From: a virus
Lineage: Duplodnaviria > Caudoviricetes
Direction: 5' to 3' (one strand)
DNA length: 51,789 bases
Virus record (IMG/VR): IMGVR_UViG_3300037155_000029
Span: 1-51,789 of that record
Part shown: positions 4,381 through 45,162 of the stretch, piece by piece
Numbering within the stretch: the stretch's first letter is position 1
Layout: the number at the start of each line of letters is the position of its first letter
Made by a program: the position numbers and the translations under genes
Notes under the pieces: generated by a model
The model's database searches: none
Told to the model about the DNA's origin: nothing
What the model saw: the letters and a program-made list of their open reading frames with translations, nothing else

Positions 4381-4551
4381 CTGTAAATTCGTTATATGTA
4401 GAATTGTGTTGGTGAAATATTTCATTCGATTGTCAGACACATATTGTTTGTTGATAATCAGCAACTTACAAATTAAGCTCTTAATATTATGTAGTTTCTT
4501 TACTCTCGTTTCTTAACTCGTTGATAATCAGCGTATTTAGTTTTTGTATTT
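4381..4551. repeat. Intergenic element copy 1 (homologous to 18576-18746)
   Basis: Colinear at a constant offset of 14195; two TTGATAATCA boxes 70 nt apart and AATTCGTTATATGTAG are shared. Confidence 0.8.
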
Positions 4552-5264: not shown

Positions 5265-6911
5265 TTACATAGTAGCATTAACTAAACTATTGTTTGCCGC
5301 ACCCGTGAAAACAGCGGTTAATTTTTCCTTGAGGCTTCCGATGCCCTCTTTAATATTCATTGTCGAAATGGTAAGATTTGGCATTATTGCGCCGTTATAG
5401 GCAACGTGAATATTGATTGTTTTTTGCCCCTCTGCTTTTGTTTTGGGAGTTGCTACCGGACTTTCGGGTTTTGTGGGAGTTGCTCCGGCTTTGTTTTTAG
5501 GGATTAATCCGCCTGTTAAATCTAATCCTTTTATTCCCGGCATAACTGCAAGTCCACCCATCATACCATAGCCGCCCTGATCTCCTGAACCAATTACAGA
5601 AGCGTTTTGATAATCTTTTGATTTATTATGCCAAATATCAGCGGCCTGATTTGCAGAATCTCTTACATTGTCAACATAATCCTTTAACCCTTGTTTCAGC
5701 ATTTTGCCCCTATCAATAGGAATCATCAAAACACCCAAAATTATTTCACCGGTTGCCTTCCACAGTTTTATAGCAAAATTAAGAGCTAATTTCATATAAT
5801 CCCAAGTTGCGCTCATTGCATTTGTGAAACCGCCGAAATGATGAGATAAGGCAATTACGCCCGCCGTTAATGCAGCCACAGCGAGAACAATCTCAGGAAT
5901 ACCCGTTGACCAAAGAGCCGCACTAAAAAGCCATGTAACCGCTGTTAATGCCGTCCCTGCAATAGTGAGAAAATTGGCCGCTATGCCTAATGCCCATAAT
6001 CCTATTGCGCTCGCATGAGTGTAAATTGTAATAGCCATTAATGCTGTACTAACCGATGCAAGCTCAATAGCTGTATCTGTAATTATTTGTTTGTGATCAC
6101 TCATCCAGCCATACATTTCTTTAATCCATCCGACTAATGAACTTATGCCGCTTGCTATTCCCTCAATAGTTGGAAGCAACTCTTTCATCATTGATTCAAC
6201 CCATTCACCCGTCACAAGTTTAGCCCGCTCCATGAGTTTGTTATACTTTGACATAATATCAGCGTTGAACATCTTTTCGGCAACGCCGGCATAACCAGAA
6301 TGCGCTATTGCTTCCATCATAAATTTTTGCGCTTGAATAAGTTTGCCGCTTGCTTGCAACGTTTCAATAGTTTTCTTTTCCTGAGCCGTAAACATCACAC
6401 CGTATCGCATCATTTTTTGAAGACCTTCAGCCGGATCGTTTAACGCTTTGCCATACATAATTGCAGTTTCAGAAAGCCCGTGATTTGTCTGTTTTGCAAT
6501 ATCGGCAACCAATCCCATAGACTGAGCGAAAACGTCTTTAGTGATTGCGGGAAAAGTCAACATCTGAGACTGCATATCTGTAACCTCGGCGCGACTGGCT
6601 TGTATTTTATTTGAAAGTTCAACGGCGTAGCCTTGCAGGTCTTTCATTCCCATTCCTGCGGCTCCATTTGTTGATTCTAAGTTGGCCTCAACTTTTGCCG
6701 TTACCTGTTCAAGAGCATGAAATGCCTCAAAGCTTTCTTTAGCAAACGAAACGATTTGATAGGCACCAAAAGCCAACCCTATCGCGCCCGCTATTTTCTG
6801 AACACCCGAAAGTGAGCTTTCAAGTTTATTCGCGTGTTCGGTTGCCGACTGAATGCCGGATGAAAGGTTCCCCTTCATATTGAGGACATATTCAACTAAG
6901 GTGCTACTCAT
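5265..6911 (-). CDS. Tape measure protein
   Basis: Ala-rich helical protein with 'GKALNDPAEGL' motif and hydrophobic segments; follows the chaperone. Confidence 0.85.
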   Translation of the reverse strand: MSSTLVEYVLNMKGNLSSGIQSATEHANKLESSLSGVQKIAGAIGLAFGAYQIVSFAKESFEAFHALEQVTAKVEANLESTNGAAGMGMKDLQGYAVELSNKIQASRAEVTDMQSQMLTFPAITKDVFAQSMGLVADIAKQTNHGLSETAIMYGKALNDPAEGLQKMMRYGVMFTAQEKKTIETLQASGKLIQAQKFMMEAIAHSGYAGVAEKMFNADIMSKYNKLMERAKLVTGEWVESMMKELLPTIEGIASGISSLVGWIKEMYGWMSDHKQIITDTAIELASVSTALMAITIYTHASAIGLWALGIAANFLTIAGTALTAVTWLFSAALWSTGIPEIVLAVAALTAGVIALSHHFGGFTNAMSATWDYMKLALNFAIKLWKATGEIILGVLMIPIDRGKMLKQGLKDYVDNVRDSANQAADIWHNKSKDYQNASVIGSGDQGGYGMMGGLAVMPGIKGLDLTGGLIPKNKAGATPTKPESPVATPKTKAEGQKTINIHVAYNGAIMPNLTISTMNIKEGIGSLKEKLTAVFTGAANNSLVNATM

Positions 6912-18575: not shown

Positions 18576-18746
18576 CTGTGAATTCGTTATATGTAGTATT
18601 GTGCGATTAAAAAAATCTATGCGATTCTCAGCGCGGTATTGTTCATTGATAATCAAACAGTTATAAATTAACCCTTTATTATTATGTAATTTTATTGTAC
18701 TCATTTCGCAACTAATTGATAATCAATATATTTAGATTTTATATTT
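18576..18746. repeat. Intergenic element copy 2 (homologous to 4381-4551)
   Basis: TTGATAATCA at 18646 and 18716; AATTCGTTATATGTAG at 18581. Confidence 0.8.
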
Positions 18747-27147: not shown

Positions 27148-27212
27148 AATATCGTAAGTTTTAAAGTATATTTCGCAAAGATGAAGCGTAAAGTAATACA
27201 ATCGTGAAAAGA

Positions 27213-27677: not shown

Positions 27678-28415
27678 ATGCGAAAAATTGAAATTAAAAA
27701 CAGATGGGACGATTCAGTAATTAAGACCGTTGAAGTCGAGGACGGTGCAAGCCTGAGCGGTGCAAACCTGATCGATGCAGACCTGAGCGGTGCAAACCTG
27801 AGCGGTGCAGACCTGAGCGGTGCAAACCTGAGCGATGCAGACCTGAGCGATGCAGACCTGAGACGTGCAAACCTGAGCGGTGCAAACCTGAGCGGTGCAG
27901 ACCTGAGCGGTGCAAACCTGAGCGATGCAGACCTGAGCGATGCAGACCTGAGCGGTGCAAACCTGAGCGATGCAGACCTGAGCGATGCAGACCTGAGACG
28001 TGCAAGCCTGAGCGGTGCAGACCTGAGACGTGCAAGCCTGAGCGGTGCAGACCTGAGCGATTTACGTCTATCTGAAACCACCGGATTTTTATTGCCCTTA
28101 TGTCCGTCTGAGGGGTCGTTTATTGGATGGAAGAAAGCAGGCGGATATATTGTTAAAATTCAAATTTGCAAGGATGCAAAACGCTCAAATGCAACATCTT
28201 TAAAATGTAGGTGTTCATCTGCAAAGGTTATTTCAATTGAAAACATTGATAGTTCAAAATCTGGACTCAAAAATATTTGCAGTGATCACGACTGTAATTT
28301 TATTTACACTATTGGAAAGGTTGTTTCGGTTGAAAATTTTGATGAACAGCGTTTTAATGAATGTTCATCAGGTATTCACTTTTTTATTAGTCGCGAAATG
28401 GCAGTACAATATTAA
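27678..28415 (+). CDS. Pentapeptide repeat protein with Cys-rich C-terminal domain (DUF5758-like)
   Basis: About 21 A(D/N/S)L(S/R)x repeats, then '[12 protein letters not shown]...KCRCS...ECSSGIHFF'. Confidence 0.9.
27744..28060 (+). repeat. 15-bp tandem repeats encoding pentapeptides
   Basis: GCA(A/G)ACCTGAGCG(G/A)T units and variants. Confidence 0.9.
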
Positions 28416-28447
28416 GCCTCGAAGTTTTCAAAGTTCTTCGGGACTTG

Positions 28448-28476
28448 CCCCGCTTATCGAAAGGTAGCGGGGTTTT
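28448..28476 (+). terminator. Intrinsic terminator
   Basis: CCCCGCT...AGCGGGG followed by TTTT. Confidence 0.65.
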
Positions 28477-28600
28477 CGGGTGAGCAACGTTGCTCTTAAA
28501 AACTTTGATTATGACAACTTTTATTTTAACAATCGTAGCACCTTTGGCTTTATTGTGGATTGCTTCAAAGCTCCCAGATACAGCAACGAAATAGCCTTAG

Positions 28601-28733
28601 CGATAACGCTTGAGGCTAACCGCATGTAGCGGAATTAGAAGCACTTAACAATCAAAATACAACGAATATGGCAAAGAAAGAAAAACTTACGAAACCCACT
28701 GCCACCGCTATTGCGGTTGAGCCTGTGTTAGGG
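28601..28733 (-). other. attC-like site A
   Basis: TAAC 28604 ... GTTA 28727; stem AGGCTAACCGCATGTAGCGG/CCGCTATTGCGGTTGAGCCT with bulges; ATG 28668 lies in the loop. Confidence 0.75.
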
Positions 28734-29159
28734 TGCGTTATTGTTTCAAAATCTCTTTTTTTAGAGACCATGGAAGCAATTGAAAAACAGTATAAGCACG
28801 ACCAGAAATGTAATACTGCTTTTAAAACATTATTACCAAATGATTACACGAGCGGATATGATAATCACTGGGTAAATAATGAGCTTATTAAATATCTGCA
28901 AAAGGCAATGAATGATGAACATGCCGAAAGTTGGATTGAGTATTTTTTATGGGAGCTTGATTTTGGTAAAAAATACAGACCTGGAAGTGTAATTAGAAAA
29001 GATAAAACACATATTGATTTATCTAATGCTGGTAAACTTTACGATTATTTAATTGAGGAAAATAAATCAAAATGCTTACATCCATTAAGTGAATTAAGGT
29101 TTTGGAATGATTCAACAGTTGAATGTTTGATATGCGGTCATCGGGGGCTGACTTTTTAA
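28668..29159 (+). CDS. Cassette-borne hypothetical protein
   Basis: 163 aa; ends GTTAGGGTGCGTTA/TAATGCACCCTAAC. Confidence 0.7.
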   Translation: MAKKEKLTKPTATAIAVEPVLGCVIVSKSLFLETMEAIEKQYKHDQKCNTAFKTLLPNDYTSGYDNHWVNNELIKYLQKAMNDEHAESWIEYFLWELDFGKKYRPGSVIRKDKTHIDLSNAGKLYDYLIEENKSKCLHPLSELRFWNDSTVECLICGHRGLTF

Positions 29160-29163
29160 TGCA

Positions 29164-29257
29164 CCCTAACGAATTGGGCTATGTGCAGTTGCCCGTGTAC
29201 AAATTTTAAATATTGCACTAAACTTATCGGGCAATTGCATATTAGCCCGTGTTATAA
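29164..29257 (-). other. attC-like site B
   Basis: Stem GGGCTATGTGCAGTTGCCCG/CGGGCAATTGCATATTAGCCC between TAAC 29167 and GTTA 29251. Confidence 0.75.
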
Positions 29258-29268
29258 ACAGTAATTTT

Positions 29269-29514
29269 ATGGAAAAGATTTGTAACCAGCATTTTATAAA
29301 AGATACGCATAGGGATAAAAAATATACATCAACCCTTAAATGCTCGTGCTGTGGAGAAGAAAGTCATTTGACTCAGCCAGCTCCATTTTTGAAAGATTTT
29401 GTAAGATGGTTAAATGATTTTACAAAACTTCACAAAAATAAAGGATGTAATAAACATAAAATAGAGAACCAGGAATGGGCTGCAAAAGAAGTCTCTTTCG
29501 GAGTGGCAATCTGA
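29269..29514 (+). CDS. Cassette-borne hypothetical protein (possible Zn-binding)
   Basis: 81 aa with CSCC and HxxxGC; ends GTTATAAACAGTAAT/ATTATTGTTTATAAC. Confidence 0.65.
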   Translation: MEKICNQHFIKDTHRDKKYTSTLKCSCCGEESHLTQPAPFLKDFVRWLNDFTKLHKNKGCNKHKIENQEWAAKEVSFGVAI

Positions 29515-29521
29515 TTATTGT

Positions 29522-29654
29522 TTATAACGTTTGAGGCTAACCGCATGTAGCGGAAATTGAAACACTTAACAATCAAAATACAACAAATATGACAACGAAG
29601 ACGAAAGCAACAAGACCCACTAAACCCGCTATTGCGGTTGAGCCTGTGTTAGCA
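29522..29654 (-). other. attC-like site C (near copy of A)
   Basis: Same stem arms as A; ATG 29589 lies in the loop. Confidence 0.75.
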
Positions 29655-29903
29655 CCTGTTTTTAAATTTGGTGATTATTGCACAATTGAACAACATAGGT
29701 ACGGGTCAAATAATGAGCATTACCATCATAAGGTAATTGGAACGCTAAAATCAACAGCGTGGGTTGAAGTTCCTGTAATGTATAATCCACAAGAAAATAA
29801 CCATGATGAACTTGTTGATGTGGTTGCTTGCGTTTGCGAGGGGGTTGATGAACGGCATATATTTAGGTACAGAGCTATTGATTGCAAGCCGCTGTTTAAA
29901 TAG
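29589..29903 (+). CDS. Cassette-borne hypothetical protein
   Basis: 104 aa; ends GTTAGCACCTGTTT/AAATAGGTGCTAAC. Confidence 0.65.
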   Translation: MTTKTKATRPTKPAIAVEPVLAPVFKFGDYCTIEQHRYGSNNEHYHHKVIGTLKSTAWVEVPVMYNPQENNHDELVDVVACVCEGVDERHIFRYRAIDCKPLFK

Positions 29904-29904
29904 G

Positions 29905-30050
29905 TGCTAACGTTCGGCGGCTATCTGCCTGTTAAGGCGGGAGACGTGAGGCACGAACGGATCGATAGCCTTAATGGCAGATAATCGTTGTTCTGTGCAG
30001 TTACTTCGCGACGCGGAAATGTTTATAGGAGAGGCCGCCGAGCGTTCAGG
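29905..30050 (-). other. attC-like site D (two alternative GTT ends)
   Basis: Inner stem TATCTGCCTGTTAAGGC/GCCTTAATGGCAGATA; outer stem AACGTTCGGCGGC/GCCGCCGAGCGTT; GTT at 29990 and 30044. Confidence 0.65.
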
Positions 30051-30085
30051 TTCAATTAAAGTTTTGGGAATTTAAAATTTGAAAT

Positions 30086-30265
30086 ATGAGAACAGTTATT
30101 AGAATCACCTTTAAGGATGGACATCAGTTAATCGCTGATATTGACAAATTTGAAATGCTAACGGATAGGGAGGTTGTTACTTTATTTTCGGCCATTTATC
30201 CCGGTTGGTCCTCATTTCAAATTTTAAATGAAGAAACTTTAGGAGCGACCAAAGGAGCGACGTAA
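30086..30265 (+). CDS. Cassette-borne 59-aa protein (not in ORF track)
   Basis: MRTVIRITFKDGHQ...GATKGAT*; ends GTTCAGGTTCAATTA/TAATTGAACCTGAAC. Confidence 0.6.
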   Translation: MRTVIRITFKDGHQLIADIDKFEMLTDREVVTLFSAIYPGWSSFQILNEETLGATKGAT

Positions 30266-30310
30266 TTGAACCTGAACTCATAAATACAACCAATAAAATA
30301 ACGGCTTTTT

Positions 30311-30496
30311 ATGAAACAATATACTGAAACATACAGGATTAAGCTCTCAATAATTCAGCGGGAGAAACTGGATAAGTTGAAAACGGAATTTAAGATTTTA
30401 CCCGCGAGGTTTATTCGATTGGCAATTGAAGAGAAGTTAAAAAATGATCTTCCAAAATTAAGGGTCAAGGCGAAAAAACAATCCTGTCCGTTCTAA
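30311..30496 (+). CDS. Ribbon-helix-helix-like regulator
   Basis: 'YRIKLSIIQREKLDKLK...PARFIRLAIEEKL'. Confidence 0.6.
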   Translation: MKQYTETYRIKLSIIQREKLDKLKTEFKILPARFIRLAIEEKLKNDLPKLRVKAKKQSCPF

Positions 30497-30564
30497 ATAT
30501 GTTCTTTAACAGCTTTTGTGAATTATATTGAGCATTAAACTAAATTGCAGAAAATTTGAAAAAT

Positions 30565-30822
30565 ATGAAAAGAGAACCAATAAAAACAGTAAAATTTGAA
30601 AACAAAGGTACGTTCGAGGCATATTATGCGGCCTGTAATTGGTGTAATGAAAATGGCTACAGTTACGGAAGTATGTGTGGAAGCGAGCCTATTGCCCTAT
30701 GGATGGGTGAACGTAGTATTTCAAAATGGAAAAACTTAAGCACGAAAGAAAGGGCTACGTGTGACGGCGTAATGATGGGAGAGTTTAGGGAAGGAGCCGT
30801 AACTATTCTTATTTATAATTAA
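30565..30822 (+). CDS. Hypothetical protein
   Basis: ORF after TGTTCTTTAACA (30500) and a promoter-like TAAATTGC (30541). Confidence 0.6.
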   Translation: MKREPIKTVKFENKGTFEAYYAACNWCNENGYSYGSMCGSEPIALWMGERSISKWKNLSTKERATCDGVMMGEFREGAVTILIYN

Positions 30823-30826
30823 AACT

Positions 30827-31072
30827 ATGACACCATCAAAAAAAATAAGGGACTTTTTCACTCCTGAACGGTTGATTAAATACGATCTAATTAGTATTGA
30901 GTCATTGGCTGGCGTTAAATCTGGAGTAATTGCATTAATTTTAAGAGAAGAACTTCATGATTCATTCACTGACGATTCCGCAAACAATCTTCTTGTTGTG
31001 ACAAATAACATTTTAAAGGATGAAAAAACATCCGATAAGTTAGTAGTTCTTAAATTTGTAACTAAAAAATAA
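30827..31072 (+). CDS. Hypothetical protein
   Basis: 81-aa ORF in operon. Confidence 0.5.
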   Translation: MTPSKKIRDFFTPERLIKYDLISIESLAGVKSGVIALILREELHDSFTDDSANNLLVVTNNILKDEKTSDKLVVLKFVTKK

Positions 31073-31796: not shown

Positions 31797-31855
31797 TGAG
31801 GGGTGACAGAGTGGTAATGTTTAAACAATCGGAGGTTCGAATCCTTCCCCCTTTT
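31797..31855 (+). ncRNA. tRNA-like element lacking an anticodon arm
   Basis: Acceptor GAGGGG/CCCCTT, D arm ACA-GAGTGGTAA-TGT, T arm GGAGG-TTCGAAT-CCTTC, with only 10 nt between D and T arms. Confidence 0.65.
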
Positions 31856-31869
31856 CAATGTTCGTTGAA

Positions 31870-32198
31870 GTTATTAGTAAAATTCGTTTGGACGCGGGTT
31901 CGACTCCCGCCAGCTCCACGCTAATCGCCAATTAGATTAGCCAGATATGCCTCTCATTAAACATATACTGTGAGATATCGGTTAAAAATGATCGAATAAA
32001 GCCATCTGAAATACGACAGGTAATTAACTCGGAGGTATTTATATGATAAAAATATCTGGCTTTATATTTGGGGCTGACCGGTATTGACAGCGAAGAAATA
32101 AGGTAACGGAGAGCATTAAAGCTGTAAAAGGCAAATCTTTAGAAATGAAAATGGCTGCGTAAGACGTGGACTTTTCAGCCGGGGCTTCGGCTCCGGTT
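31870..32198 (+). ncRNA. ssrA: Circularly permuted two-piece tmRNA
   Basis: The 3' module GACGCGGGTTCGACTCCCGCCAGCTCCA (31891-31918) precedes the 5' module GGGGCTGACCGGTATTGAC (from 32070). Acceptor stem has G3-U70. Tag ORF 32130-32162 encodes GKSLEMKMAA*. Confidence 0.88.
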
Positions 32199-43287: not shown

Positions 43288-43418
43288 AACTAACGGTATC
43301 CAGCTATGTGCAGGGCGGGATGCGGAGAGAAAATTTGTCAAGCTGCACAAACCAACGGGCGGGTTAAGTCGCTCGAATTACAAACAATACCCGACTTGAC
43401 ATATAGCTGGGGTTATAA
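43288..43418 (-). other. attC-like site E
   Basis: Stem CCAGCTATGTGCAGGGCGGG/CCCGACTTGACATATAGCTGG between TAAC 43291 and GTTA 43412. Confidence 0.7.
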
Positions 43419-43431
43419 ACAGTTTTCAATC

Positions 43432-43815
43432 ATGGTAATTTATCAACACACAGACACAAACGGTTATTCAATTTTTGATACCGATCCAGATTTAAAATAC
43501 ATATCTGGAAGAAGTAGCACAATGACAAAAACAATGGAAGCCAAGCCGACTAAAAAACCACATCAAAGAAAAGAAGAAGGAGTTTATTCAATCGGAGATG
43601 TGTTTTTTGTAAATCACGGCAAAAATGGTTCTTGGTGTGAAATAACAGCATTAGAACCGATTAAGTCAAATATTGCAGACAAGATTAAAAACTGCAATAC
43701 GATGGCAGAACTTGATACTCTCAGAATAGAAATTGTGTCCGATAAAGAAAACTTTGTCGAAAATCAAAAACTATTCTTGTCCGCGAAAAACAGGATTAAG
43801 CGCAACGCTTTTTAA
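43432..43815 (+). CDS. Cassette-borne hypothetical protein
   Basis: Probable start MVIYQH; frame is open from 43306. Confidence 0.6.
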   Translation: MVIYQHTDTNGYSIFDTDPDLKYISGRSSTMTKTMEAKPTKKPHQRKEEGVYSIGDVFFVNHGKNGSWCEITALEPIKSNIADKIKNCNTMAELDTLRIEIVSDKENFVENQKLFLSAKNRIKRNAF

Positions 43816-43818
43816 ATT

Positions 43819-43964
43819 GTTTAACGCTCGGCGGCTAAACCTTCGTTTAACCCGCCTTTGAGGTACGAAAAGGAGAGAGGGTTAAATGAGGTTTAATCGT
43901 TGTTAGGGTCACGTTCGTTCGCGACACTATAAGGCCTTTAGGTACAGGCCGCCGAGCGTTAGGG
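43819..43964 (-). other. attC-like site F (two alternative GTT ends; related to D)
   Basis: Outer stem AACGCTCGGCGGC/GCCGCCGAGCGTT; inner stem TAAACCTTCGTTTAACCC/GGGTTAAATGAGGTTTA; GTTAGGG at 43902 and 43958. Confidence 0.65.
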
Positions 43965-43999
43965 ATCAATTTGAATACCGAGAATTTAAAATTTTAGTC

Positions 44000-44251
44000 A
44001 TGAAAGAAATTATTAAAGATTTAAATCAGATCAAAGTAAATCTGCAATTCGCAGTTGATTTTAGAGACGGGCTCGTTGTTATATCGGAAATTAAAAAAGT
44101 GGACGCCCTGATACTAAGGCTCTCTAAAATTTTAAATGAAGGGATTCAAGTGAACGATAAATCAGTTTGCCCTAAATGCGGAAGTAGTAATTATATAAAT
44201 ACCTACTTAATTGAAGAGTGCAAAGATTGTTGTTGGATCAGGGCAAAATGA
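44000..44251 (+). CDS. Cassette-borne zinc-ribbon protein
   Basis: CPKC...CKDC; ends GTTAGGGATCAATT/AATTGATCCCTAAC. Confidence 0.65.
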   Translation: MKEIIKDLNQIKVNLQFAVDFRDGLVVISEIKKVDALILRLSKILNEGIQVNDKSVCPKCGSSNYINTYLIEECKDCCWIRAK

Positions 44252-44272
44252 TTTGGAGCGAACGCAATTGAT

Positions 44273-44402
44273 CCCTAACGTTGGGTATATGGCAAGTTGG
44301 GGATTAAAAAGTGCTACCCTGTCGAGCCGCACGAAAGAAAATTAACAGCACAAATATTCAAATTGGAACGACACCCCCAATTTGCTATATACATTGTTAG
44401 GG
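44273..44402 (-). other. attC-like site G
   Basis: Stem GTATATGGCAAGTTGGGG/CCCCAATTTGCTATATAC between TAAC 44276 and GTTA 44396. Confidence 0.75.
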
Positions 44403-44422
44403 TGCGTTTATTCTTAATCAAA

Positions 44423-44614
44423 ATGGAACATAAAATTAAAGAGTTAGAAAACTATTTAAACGATTTAGACAACCTAATAGACACAGGGTGGTTTCCAGAA
44501 GAAAGTGTAAAAGATTGTACATTTTATCACAAGGATTTAACGCTTCGTGATTTTGTATCAAAAGGTCGTGAATATATCCGACAGTATTTAATCTCTGAAA
44601 AGGGTGTTTCTTAA
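44423..44614 (+). CDS. Cassette-borne hypothetical protein
   Basis: MEHKIKE...; ends GTTAGGGTGCGTTTA/TAAATGCACCCTAAC. Confidence 0.6.
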   Translation: MEHKIKELENYLNDLDNLIDTGWFPEESVKDCTFYHKDLTLRDFVSKGREYIRQYLISEKGVS

Positions 44615-44619
44615 ATGCA

Positions 44620-44749
44620 CCCTAACGGTCGCAGGTTTGACCAGTAAAGGAATTAAAATAACTAAATTATCAAATTATGAAAAACTTTATTAAGCGCGCT
44701 ATTGATCGCATACGCAGGAAACCTTTATTGGTTAAACCTGTTGTTAGCC
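44620..44749 (-). other. attC-like site H
   Basis: Stem CAGGTTTGACCAGTAAAGG/CCTTTATTGGTTAAACCTG; ATG 44677 lies in the loop. Confidence 0.75.
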
Positions 44750-45084
44750 ACCGTTTTATTAAACACCAAGACAAAACAAATTGGGGCGTATCAATTCACA
44801 TGCTTGAAGAAAGTGGGAGGGCTTATGCCAGAACATATTGGTATGATGATGATGAAACAGTGGTATTTTTAGAAGGATTGCATGTTGATAAAGAAGCGAG
44901 GGGGAATGGCATTGCTTCTAAATTGTTAGACTTACACATTCAGATAGCGAAAGATAATCATGCCAGTTCTCAACTAAAGGTAAAAGAAGGAACGTGGGTG
45001 TATGAATGGTATAAACGCAGGGGATATAAGGACTATGTAAAATGCAAAGAAAGCAATGACATTTGGCTGTATATGCTGCCTTAA
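44677..45084 (+). CDS. Cassette-borne GNAT acetyltransferase
   Basis: 'LHVDKEARGNGIASKLL...WYKRRGY'; ends GTTAGCCACCGTTT/AAATGGTGGCTAAC. Confidence 0.85.
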   Translation: MKNFIKRAIDRIRRKPLLVKPVVSHRFIKHQDKTNWGVSIHMLEESGRAYARTYWYDDDETVVFLEGLHVDKEARGNGIASKLLDLHIQIAKDNHASSQLKVKEGTWVYEWYKRRGYKDYVKCKESNDIWLYMLP

Positions 45085-45162
45085 ATGGTGGCTAACTCAT
45101 TGCTATACGTAATGTATATATACACCCAATTAGGCTGTATATACGCAATTAATATAATGTTT

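What the first reader, a model, noticed from the sequence alone, without database searches (positions are those of the whole stretch)
28604..29661. Cassette genes are antisense to attC and start inside their own attC loop
Seen: array 1 begins with a hairpin and both arrays end in AAC with no equivalent hairpin, so the unit on the plus strand is hairpin+gene. Read on the minus strand, site A gives CCCTAAC-ACAG-GCTCAACC...GGTTAGCC-TCAAGC-GTTA, with the extra C on the R''/L'' arm as in classical attC. The ORFs are therefore inverted relative to normal cassettes. ATGs at 28668, 29589 and 44677 sit in the hairpin loop and read through the stem, giving AIAVEPVL (twice) and LLVKPVVS leaders, and most stop codons fall in or beside the distal inverted end. 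Inference: the recombination site doubles as translation start and N-terminal coding sequence.
Basis: partly seen in the sequence, partly recalled or inferred. Interest (0 to 1): 0.85.

Follow-up and report, generated by a model that had tools for sequence, protein, structure and literature searches.

The report
Phage cassettes starting inside recombination hairpins
This phage carries two rows of small swappable genes of the integron type, but each gene lies behind its folded recombination site instead of in front of it, and three of the eight genes appear to begin inside that site; phage-borne arrays are known, this reversed layout is not in the papers I searched.

Summary
The window is a complete circular phage contig with eight AAC...GTT-closed hairpins, four at 28605-30046 and four at 43292-44745. 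Each row ends in a lone AAC|T (30275-30277, 45094-45096). Shuffled sequence gives 0-1 such hairpins.

The unit is hairpin plus downstream gene, with crossover at the AAC on the coding strand.
- A contig from another metagenome holds cassette 29911-30276 unchanged, with unlike flanks on both sides.
- Two other contigs follow the first cargo gene with a different hairpin.
- A related phage has one hairpin-gene-AAC unit at the same locus.

A genuine class 1 integron, analysed the same way, shows the mirror geometry. The genes therefore lie on the attC bottom strand.

The loop ATGs at 28668, 29589 and 44677 have the phage's normal start context; the alternatives do not. One hairpin family is fused in frame to six unrelated proteins.

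No integron integrase was found in the phage or in 301 genomes of the candidate host family. Translation and recombination remain untested.

Phage CALINs are published (Qi 2023); the reversed polarity is not in the papers I searched. This scan has noted the same layout before on other DNA.

The parts
28605..28729 (+). Hairpin A1 (A-type attC-like site; AAC to GTT). The loop holds an A-rich leader, the ATG at 28668 and 20 codons that run through the 3' arm.
28607..29169 (+). Cassette 1-1: C of AAC, hairpin A1, ORF 28668-29159 (163 aa, phrog_28377), end box GCACCCTAA.
   Evidence: 10-nt inverted ends. (X3/X6 contigs break at 29171).
29170..29527 (+). Cassette 1-2: hairpin A2 (29168-29253), ORF 29269-29514 (81 aa), start 16 nt after GTT.
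29528..29910 (+). Cassette 1-3: hairpin A3 (29526-29650, A-type, 84% identical to A1), ORF 29589-29903 (104 aa, phrog_18349), start in loop.
29911..30276 (+). Cassette 1-4: hairpin A4 (29909-30046), ORF 30086-30265 (59 aa), then the lone terminal AAC 30275-30277 followed by TCAT.
   Evidence: 15-nt inverted ends. (X4 record 7 identical over 29907-30278, unlike flanks).
43294..43824 (+). Cassette 2-1: hairpin B0 (43292-43414), ORF probably 43432-43815. The ATG at 43306 in the 5' arm has a poor start context.
43825..44278 (+). Cassette 2-2: hairpin B1 (43823-43960, relative of A4), ORF 44000-44251 (83 aa).
   Evidence: D6: similarity with A4 runs through GTT into the 5' end of the right-hand gene. 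(14-nt inverted ends).
44279..44625 (+). Cassette 2-3: hairpin B2 (44277-44398), ORF 44423-44614 (63 aa).
44626..45096 (+). Cassette 2-4: hairpin B3 (44624-44745), GNAT acetyltransferase ORF 44677-45084 (135 aa) starting in the loop, then the lone terminal AAC 45094-45096 followed by TCAT.

Best explanation
These are two arrays of four integron-type gene cassettes each, in a complete phage genome that has no integrase (CALIN-like). The phage probably infects Bacteroidota. The arrays sit at the two ends of the rightward early/replication module.

Each cassette is the mirror image of a textbook cassette. On the coding strand it runs C - attC-like hairpin - GTTxxxxxx - ORF - stop - xxxxxxAA. The coding strand is therefore the strand that integron nomenclature calls the bottom (recombining) strand, and the crossover lies in the AA|C upstream of each hairpin.

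Inferred: the arrays grew by insertion of circular cassettes at TAA|C (= G|TTA) secondary sites of the phage backbone.

Because the hairpin precedes its gene, its A/T-rich loop can carry the ribosome-loading leader, the ATG and the first 20-23 codons, which read through the 3' arm. This is so in cassettes 1-1, 1-3 and 2-4. The other five genes start 16-40 nt after the GTT.

Shown here: cassette boundaries, polarity, in-frame leaders and start contexts. Inferred: single-stranded recombination by a tyrosine recombinase supplied in trans (identity unknown, no canonical IntI found), and actual use of the loop ATGs.
For: Eight hairpins against 0-1 in shuffles.

Inverted ends. Each right box matches its own cassette's far end over 10, 10, 10, 15, 4, 14, 10 and 10 nt. 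It matches the adjacent left box over only 3-7 nt. The last value was read, because my script was one base off there. The same end logic appears in a real class 1 array: 12, 12, 8, 4, 12.

Cassette boundaries seen in other DNA.
- X4 record 7 equals window 29907-30278 with 0 differences and unlike flanks.
- X3 record 2 and X6 record 27 end at 29171 and run into another hairpin family.
- L070 has the same A3 hairpin and cargo behind a different left flank.
- G004 has a single hairpin-gene-AAC unit in front of the same small RHH-like gene as window array 1.

Polarity.
- The control class 1 attCs lie 3' of their ORFs, with bulges on the 5' arm of the sense strand in 6 of 6 sites and 0-1 G.T pairs.
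- The phage sites have bulges on the 3' arm (A1, A2, A3, B0, and two sites of G001) and 1-4 G.T pairs.
- The sense-strand stem is more stable in 7 of 8 window sites and in 8 of 9 G001 sites.

Starts.
- The PWM from 47 other genes of this phage scores the loop ATGs 4.3, 5.9 and 4.5, the 98th-99th percentile. GTG or TTG in the stem score -6.0, -6.6 and -9.9. Downstream ATGs score -1.2 and -6.2.
- In 7 A-type copies the ATG is exactly 57 nt before GTG-TTA, although one copy has a 1-nt indel upstream of the ATG.
- Six unrelated cargos of 75-163 aa are in frame with the leader (all-against-all blastp without the leader, E >= 0.88).
- The first in-frame ATG lies inside the hairpin in 11 of 25 hairpin-cargo pairs.
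- Homologues of the A3 cargo without the leader start 3-8 residues before the shared core.
- The leader is predicted to be unstructured. The model is weak (mean pLDDT 66, 5 sequences).

Loot et al. (passages): IntI inserts cassettes at 5'-GWT-3' genome sites.
Against: No PF00589 recombinase is in the window. The two tyrosine recombinases of relative G004 are not IntI: TIGR02249 scores 52 bits against a cut-off of 265. None of 301 genomes of the family of G005 reach that cut-off.

Only the A-type site has the canonical G and T extrahelical bases. Most sites instead have an asymmetric spacer, a 2-4 nt bulge on the 5' arm. A4 and B1 have no unpaired spacer.

A covariance model from six class 1 attCs found none of the eight sites on either strand at E <= 10.

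The excess of G.T pairs on the sense strand would also be expected if the hairpins were selected as RNA.

No RNA, ribosome or protein data exist. The GTG overlapping the GTT core is in frame and cannot be excluded as a start.

Cassette 2-1 has only 4 nt of end complementarity. In the G001 array only 4 of 8 cassettes reach 9 nt or more.
Confidence: 0.75

Rival explanations
1. Right polarity, wrong starts. The cassettes are hairpin-first, but the loop ATGs are not used. Translation starts at the GTG that overlaps the GTT core (A-type) or further downstream, and the open frame through the loop is a by-product.
For: GTG at 28725 and 29646 is in frame. It would give N-termini of the same length as the leaderless homologues P0002, P0003 and P0005. 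The leader's codons 2-13 are hypervariable. Its model is unstructured.
Against: The GTG and TTG contexts score -6.0, -6.6 and -9.9, against 4.3-5.9 for the loop ATGs. The ATG, the open frame and the 57-nt spacing are kept in 7 of 7 A-type copies, despite an indel just upstream of the ATG. For 4 cargos no other in-frame ATG lies within 200 nt after GTT. The GNAT would lose about 40 residues that lie before its Pfam match.
Confidence: 0.2
2. Integron-like but not integron. The hairpins are sites of a different recombinase supplied in trans, for example a Xer-like tyrosine recombinase of Bacteroidota. The likeness to attC would then be partly convergent.
For: No IntI over cut-off in 301 genomes of the candidate host family. 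The unpaired spacer is asymmetric, unlike class 1 attCs. The class 1 model finds nothing. Earlier notes of this scan propose a Xer-like enzyme; I did not test that.
Against: The A-type site reproduces the bottom-strand layout of a real aadA1 attC: the same GCTTGA spacer, then a G bulge and a T bulge. The AAC/GTT crossover core and the end logic equal those of the control array. Qi 2023 showed that IntI1 recombines phage-borne attCs, including one from a Polaribacter phage (section 3.4 read). My narrow searches found neither arrays beside the 4 recombinase loci I fetched nor the GGTCG-type site in 401 genomes.
Confidence: 0.3
3. Textbook orientation. The + strand is the top strand and each gene owns the hairpin to its right. 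The leftmost hairpin is an orphan, and the last attC of each row is truncated just after AAC.
For: Each hairpin reads RYYYAAC...GTTRRRY on the + strand too. Stops abut the next AAC as in normal cassettes.
Against: It needs the same truncation in 3 of 3 array ends. The hairpin to the right of cargo 1-1 differs between samples, while hairpin A4 travels with the gene on its right. The A4/B1 similarity runs through GTT into the right-hand gene (D6). The bulges are on the wrong arm relative to the control.
Confidence: 0.04
4. The hairpins are RNA elements (processing sites, terminators or translational operators) multiplied by duplication, not recombination sites.
For: There are 1-4 G.T (G.U) pairs per site, all on the transcribed strand. 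The start codons sit in open loops.
Against: Nothing at the RNA level predicts the 10-15 nt complementarity between each right box and the far end of its gene. Nor does it predict whole units found with unlike flanks broken exactly at the AAC, or the lone AAC ends. No Rfam family matches them at gathering score. No T-runs follow the stems.
Confidence: 0.04

Closest known systems
Clusters of attC sites lacking an integrase (CALINs) in phage genomes (Qi, Rajabal, Ghaly, Tetu, Gillings 2023, PMC9892861; outline, section 3.4 and passages read)
   Same: A phage genome without IntI carries rows of attC-bounded single-gene cassettes. One published case is a phage of a Flavobacteriia host (Polaribacter phage P12002L).
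   Different: [quoted passage not shown] The word 'antisense' does not occur in its main text. It does not report genes on the bottom strand or starts inside attC.
Classical integron cassettes and attC sites (Nivina et al. 2016, PMC5027507, passages; class 1 array of phage P1 isolate MH445380 analysed here)
   Same: An AAC/GTT core with the crossover inside it, imperfect hairpins that conserve structure rather than sequence, a hybrid box at each junction, stops abutting the site, and site lengths in the known range. The A-type site has the canonical G and T extrahelical bases and the same GCTTGA spacer as aadA1 attC.
   Different: The gene is on the other strand relative to the site, so the hairpin lies 5' of the ORF. 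The spacer is asymmetric. The loops are long (about 60-100 nt) and carry the leader, ATG and N-terminus. The inverted ends are 10-15 nt rather than about 7. No IntI, attI or Pc is present.
Cassette insertion at non-att genome sites (attG; SALIN/CALIN formation), Loot et al., bioRxiv 10.1101/2022.09.11.507474 (passages)
   Same: It explains integrase-less single cassettes and small arrays inserted at a short 5'-GWT-3' target. The junctions here are TAA|C, that is G|TTA.
   Different: It was shown for IntI1 in E. coli, with no phage targets. The targets here share more than GWT: TAAC-TCAT twice in the window.
Promoter-bearing cassettes of Vibrio chromosomal integrons (Richard et al. 2024, PMC13108822, passages). 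That TA cassettes are often reverse-oriented is my recollection and comes from no call.
   Same: Cassettes that do not depend on Pc for expression.
   Different: There they are a minority inside normally oriented arrays. Here 8 of 8 cassettes, and those in the related arrays, are reversed.

Membership tests
Integron attC site | Inverse core and core boxes RYYYAAC ... GTTRRRY with invariant AAC/GTT | tested here: met
   8 of 8 sites are closed by AAC:GTT. The boxes read (C/T/A)TAAC or TGAAC, and GTTAGGG/GTTAGCC/GTTATAA/GTTCAGG.
Integron attC site | Imperfect hairpin with extrahelical bases on the R''-L'' arm (a G in L'', a 6-bp stem, then a T) | tested here: inconclusive
   Met in A1 and A3 (G bulge, 6-7 bp, then T). 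A2 and B0 have a single bulge on the same arm. A4, B1, B2 and B3 have no single-base bulge on the 3' arm. The control attCs show the feature in 6 of 6 sites.
Integron attC site | Unpaired central spacer of about 5-6 nt on each arm | tested here: inconclusive
   The 5' arm has 5-6 nt but the 3' arm only 2-3 nt, which folds as a 2-4 nt bulge. A4 and B1 pair straight through.
Integron attC site | Recognised by a curated attC covariance model (IntegronFinder or HattCI) | not testable with these tools
   Those models are not on hand. My stand-in model from six class 1 attCs hit none of the sites. That says little, because it was built from short, closely related sites.
Integron attC site | Recombined as folded bottom strand by an integron integrase | not testable with these tools
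   Needs an attC x attI assay.
Integron gene cassette array | Units that move independently, with the crossover inside the conserved triplet and a hybrid box at each junction | tested here: met
   X4 record 7; X3 record 2; X6 record 27; L070; G004; own far end 10-15 nt in 7 of 8, adjacent box 3-7 nt. Same logic in the control.
Integron gene cassette array | ORF on the top strand, upstream of its attC | tested here: not met
   8 of 8 ORFs lie on the strand that carries the 5' AAC crossover and the 3'-arm bulges, downstream of their hairpin. The control array is the opposite.
Complete integron | intI gene with attI and Pc next to the array | tested here: not met
   No PF00589 match in the whole 51.8-kb genome. 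The flanking genes are a pentapeptide/DUF5758 protein, an RHH-like protein, DUF6549 and Endonuclease_NS.
CALIN (cluster of attC sites lacking integrase) | Two or more attC sites on one strand within 4 kb, with no integrase nearby (definition in Cury 2016, passages) | tested here: met
   Four sites within 1.5 kb, twice, all in the same orientation, and no integrase. This depends on accepting the sites as attC.

The most novel reading that the evidence does not exclude
Phages of Bacteroidota maintain their own integron-like cassette pool that does not depend on a canonical IntI. In it the recombination hairpin is a portable expression head: it supplies the ribosome-loading leader, the start codon and about 20 codons. 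Rare exchange at the second (GTT) box joins one head in frame to unrelated genes. That would be a natural route by which new cassettes are born, which is an open question for integrons.
Probability: 0.3. Interest if true: 0.85.

Novelty: new variant of a known kind. Interest (0 to 1): 0.62.

Why it matters
In integrons, cassette orientation is thought to be fixed by bottom-strand recombination so that promoterless genes face the Pc promoter. These arrays have every gene on the other strand. The attC-like site therefore precedes the gene and can double as its translation start.

This has three consequences.
- attC-type sites can be embedded in coding sequence in nature.
- Each cassette becomes an expression unit that fits a phage operon.
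- There is a concrete data set (one hairpin fused in frame to six unrelated proteins) for asking how cassettes acquire their sites.

It also raises the question of which enzyme moves cassettes in a host group where I found no canonical integron integrase.

Tried and rejected
Orientation test with an attC model. I built model R1 from six class 1 attCs and searched the whole window with filters off. There were 9 weak hits at E 1.8-9.3. None is one of the eight hairpins. One 9.2-bit partial hit lies inside B1 on the + strand. The test is inconclusive, because the model is too narrow.

Nucleotide searches for relatives.
- 28000-31000 against phages: only the pentapeptide repeat matched.
- Hairpin A1 against plasmids: chance hits only.

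The 17-mer of the A-type 5' arm.
- Viral contigs: 8 loci, of which 4 hold the full hairpin (two are the same sequence).
- Genome contigs: 40 loci, of which 1 holds the full hairpin, a 3.3-kb contig of a Lutibacter MAG. The other 39 look like chance.

Host-chromosome arrays. This was a lead from earlier notes and was not reproduced by my narrow tests.
- No hairpin at -14 or better in four 10-20 kb stretches around partial TIGR02249 matches.
- The GGTCG-type site pattern occurred in 0 of 401 genomes.

Other searches.
- A3 cargo in viral contigs: 133 pattern matches, 0 relatives.
- No RNA holder is listed among the 24 runs, so nothing can be said on expression.
- No contig was seen that bridges an empty site across either array (contigs only).
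- Structure model of the A3 protein: mean pLDDT 66 from 5 sequences. I used it only to say that the leader is unstructured in the model.
- Papers on reversed ORFs or starts inside attC: searches found none that describe this layout. I read only listings and passages, not whole papers. Supplements were closed.

Rejected candidate starts.
- The ATG at 43306 (5' arm of B0) and the TTG at 44297 (loop of B2) have poor contexts, -4.9 and -5.0.
Full report
WHAT THE WINDOW IS. The first 127 bases recur at the end, and the record is a virus contig with direct terminal repeats. The window is therefore a whole, circularly assembled phage genome of about 51.7 kb. Leftward genes are structural and lysis genes. 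The rightward module, 27.3-45.1 kb, holds a replication initiator, a DnaC-like loader, RecT, NinG/Rap and HNH nucleases. No tyrosine recombinase (PF00589) is present anywhere in it. A Bacteroidota host is likely but not proven. Relatives of one cassette protein sit in Riemerella phages. The only bacterial-assembly contig with the same hairpin is binned with a Lutibacter MAG. The start regions are A-rich, as read from the upstream stretches printed.

THE OBSERVATION. Reading the sequence shows hairpins closed by AAC...GTT in front of small rightward genes. I scanned for AAC/GTT pairs 45-165 nt apart with the triplets forced to pair. The scan ranks exactly eight sites on top, -14.8 to -20.7 kcal/mol for the two 26-nt arms. 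Four lie at 28605-30046 and four at 43292-44745. Of 20 dinucleotide shuffles, 16 gave no site at -14.5 or better and 4 gave one. Each row begins with a complete hairpin and ends in a lone box, CCTGAAC|TCAT at 30270 and GGCTAAC|TCAT at 45090, with no hairpin behind it.

CASSETTE ENDS. The box just after each hairpin (GTT plus the following bases) is complementary to the far end of the gene that follows. The perfect runs are 10, 10, 10, 15, 4, 14, 10 and 10 nt. The match to the box on the hairpin's own left side is only 3-7 nt. The last value is read, because of an off-by-one in my script. A genuine class 1 array behaves the same way: 12, 12, 8, 4, 12. This is the signature of units that circularise and recombine inside the AAC/GTT triplet. 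By itself it does not say which hairpin belongs to which gene.

WHICH HAIRPIN BELONGS TO WHICH GENE. Four independent lines agree that the unit is hairpin plus the gene to its right, with the break at the AAC on the left of each hairpin.
(a) Array ends. In 3 of 3 arrays (two in the window, one single cassette in related phage G004), the layout is hairpin first and lone AAC last. The G004 cassette sits directly before a small RHH-like gene that resembles window gene 30311-30496 (my reading; no alignment was made). I read the two loci as homologous, one holding one cassette and the other four.
(b) Contigs from other metagenomes. X4 record 7 (754 nt) equals window 29907-30278 without a single difference and runs into unlike sequence on both sides. 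That stretch is precisely hairpin A4, its gene and the two shared TAAC cores. X3 record 2 and X6 record 27 follow cargo 1-1 up to 29171 and then continue into a hairpin of another family, the GGTCGAGGCTAT type that is also found in G001. Cargo 1-1 is therefore not tied to the hairpin on its right.
(c) L070 carries the same hairpin and cargo as cassette 1-3 (94% amino-acid identity) behind a different left flank. Likeness starts at TAAC.
(d) The likeness between hairpins A4 and B1 runs through the GTT into the 5' end of the right-hand genes (family D6).

POLARITY RELATIVE TO TEXTBOOK INTEGRONS. Nivina et al. 2016 (passages) state three things about the bottom strand. The conserved AAC lies in R' at its 5' end, inside RYYYAAC. 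The extrahelical bases lie near L'' on the other arm. They consist of a G, a 6-bp stem, then a T.

As a control I analysed the cassette array of the class 1 integron in phage P1 isolate MH445380, using the accession given in Qi 2023.
- The attCs lie 3' of their ORFs.
- On the gene-sense strand the single-base bulges are on the 5' arm in 6 of 6 sites.
- G.T pairs number 0-1 per site.
- The antisense strand is the more stable in 5 of 6.

In the phage the opposite holds on the gene-sense strand.
- A1 and A3 show a G bulge, a 6-7 bp stem and then a T on the 3' arm. They even share the GCTTGA spacer with the bottom strand of aadA1 attC.
- A2 and B0 carry one bulge on the same arm.
- G.T pairs number 1-4 per site.
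- The sense-strand stem is the more stable in 7 of 8 window sites and in 8 of 9 sites of G001.

So, in integron terms, the coding strand is the bottom strand and the genes are reversed.

DIFFERENCES FROM CLASSICAL attC.
- Most sites lack single extrahelical bases. They have an asymmetric spacer instead: 5-6 nt on the 5' arm against 2-3 nt on the 3' arm, which folds as a 2-4 nt bulge.
- A4 and B1 pair without any spacer.
- The loops are long.
- A small covariance model from the six control attCs recognised none of the sites on either strand.
- No Rfam family matches the hairpins at gathering score.

STARTS INSIDE THE LOOP. The ATGs at 28668, 29589 and 44677 lie in the loops and open the cargo frames.

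I built a position matrix of the 22 nt upstream of 47 other genes of this phage. The training median is 3.7.
- Loop ATGs: 4.3, 5.9 and 4.5, the 98th-99th percentile of all ATG/GTG/TTG on the strand.
- GTG overlapping the GTT core: -6.0 and -6.6.
- TTG at 44728: -9.9.
- Next ATGs downstream: -1.2 and -6.2.

The comparative evidence is stronger.
- The A-type hairpin occurs in seven copies (A1, A3, G001, G004, L006, L013, L070). It is nearly invariant from TAAC to the ATG, and again over the last 26 nt up to GTTA. Codons 2-13 are hypervariable.
- In all seven copies the ATG is kept, the frame is open, and the ATG lies exactly 57 nt before GTG-TTA, although G004 has a 1-nt insertion just upstream of the ATG.
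- The six distinct cargos (75-163 aa) show no likeness to each other once the leader is removed (E >= 0.88). All six are in frame with the leader M-x11-x-PAIAVEPVL.
- Homologues of the A3 cargo exist both with the leader (P0001) and without it (P0002, P0003, P0005). The latter start 3-8 residues before the shared FKFGDYC core.
- PHROG and tblastn matches begin at residues 20-28.
- The model leaves residues 1-21 without structure. It is weak.

The leader is thus an add-on contributed by the site, not part of the cargo fold.

Other hairpin families in related arrays also have an A/T-rich stretch and an ATG in the loop. The first in-frame ATG is inside the hairpin in 11 of 25 hairpin-cargo pairs. 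In the window the count is 3 of 8. B0's ATG in the 5' arm and B2's TTG have poor contexts and are probably not used.

HOW IT PROBABLY WORKS.
Shown: independent cassettes of the form C-hairpin-GTT...ORF...AA, and arrays at two backbone sites that both read TAAC|TCAT.
Inferred:
- Circular cassettes recombine through the folded coding-strand hairpin with G|TT-type sites. Loot et al. showed this for IntI1 at 5'-GWT-3' genome sites (passages).
- The enzyme comes from the host, because the phage has none.
- With the hairpin upstream, the open A/T-rich loop presents the start codon. Each cassette then brings its own translation start into the phage's rightward operon.
- The G.T excess on the sense strand may reflect selection on the single DNA strand, on the mRNA, or on both.

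I could not name the recombinase.
- The two tyrosine recombinases of G004 are ordinary phage-type integrases.
- None of 301 genomes of the family of G005 reach the IntI cut-off.
- Narrow searches for such arrays in those genomes found nothing.

WHAT IS KNOWN. Qi et al. 2023 reported 17 CALINs in phages and showed that IntI1 recombines five of six phage-borne attCs (section 3.4 read). Phage-borne integron cassettes as such are therefore known. My four literature searches turned up no description of this layout. That cassettes of chromosomal integrons can carry their own promoter is stated in Richard et al. 2024. That some are reverse-oriented is my recollection.

This scan itself has noted the same layout on other DNA many times: 98 notes hold the search words, among them e1-5595851, e1-5402818 and e1-6104127. 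I treated those as leads only.

VERDICT. The arrays are a new variant of a known kind. Interest is moderate to high, because polarity, embedded starts and in-frame reuse of one site bear on how cassettes are expressed and born. Recombination and translation remain to be shown at the bench.

Noticed in passing
window 31797-32162: Rfam finds a permuted tmRNA (RF04321, 66.3 bits, gathering 47) at 31859-32162 and a tRNA-like element (RF00005, 33 bits, gathering 29) at 31797-31855. ARAGORN reported no tRNA or tmRNA gene in the window.
   Followed up: partly
window 31886-31919: A stretch of about 34 nt inside the tmRNA region recurs in contigs of runs X3, X4 and X6, with unlike sequence on both sides (loose ends at 31886 and 31919/31920). 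It could be a conserved RNA end or an attachment-site-like core.
   Followed up: no
window 40759 joined to 28508: Contigs in runs X4 and X5 join the end of the HNH gene (40759) to 28508, just left of array 1. A 29-nt repeat, 97% identical, lies at 27207 and 40731 (D19). Relatives therefore have a different gene order around the array.
   Followed up: no
window 29992 joined to 43939: One X5 contig joins hairpin A4 to hairpin B1 with 34 other letters between them. This is a third variant of that hairpin family.
   Followed up: no
window 27678-28415: The gene left of array 1 is a pentapeptide-repeat protein with a DUF5758 domain. Its DNA shows an 18-copy, 15-nt periodic repeat (D1).
   Followed up: no
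window 4381-4551 and 18576-18746: Two 171-nt direct repeats, 74% identical, lie in the leftward late region (D2).
   Followed up: no
cassette 3' ends, e.g. window 29154-29170, 44608-44626, 45081-45096; L013; G001: Many cassettes end in TAA(A)T, then 6 nt, then TAAC, so the stop codon is part of the extended end repeat. The right box and the far end then differ at one fixed position, G against A at base 11.
   Followed up: partly
window 45104-45156 and G004 (L057 reverse complement, about 5580-5600): A TATATATACAC-like motif follows the terminal AAC both in window array 2 and in the G004 single cassette. It may be a shared feature of the insertion sites.
   Followed up: no
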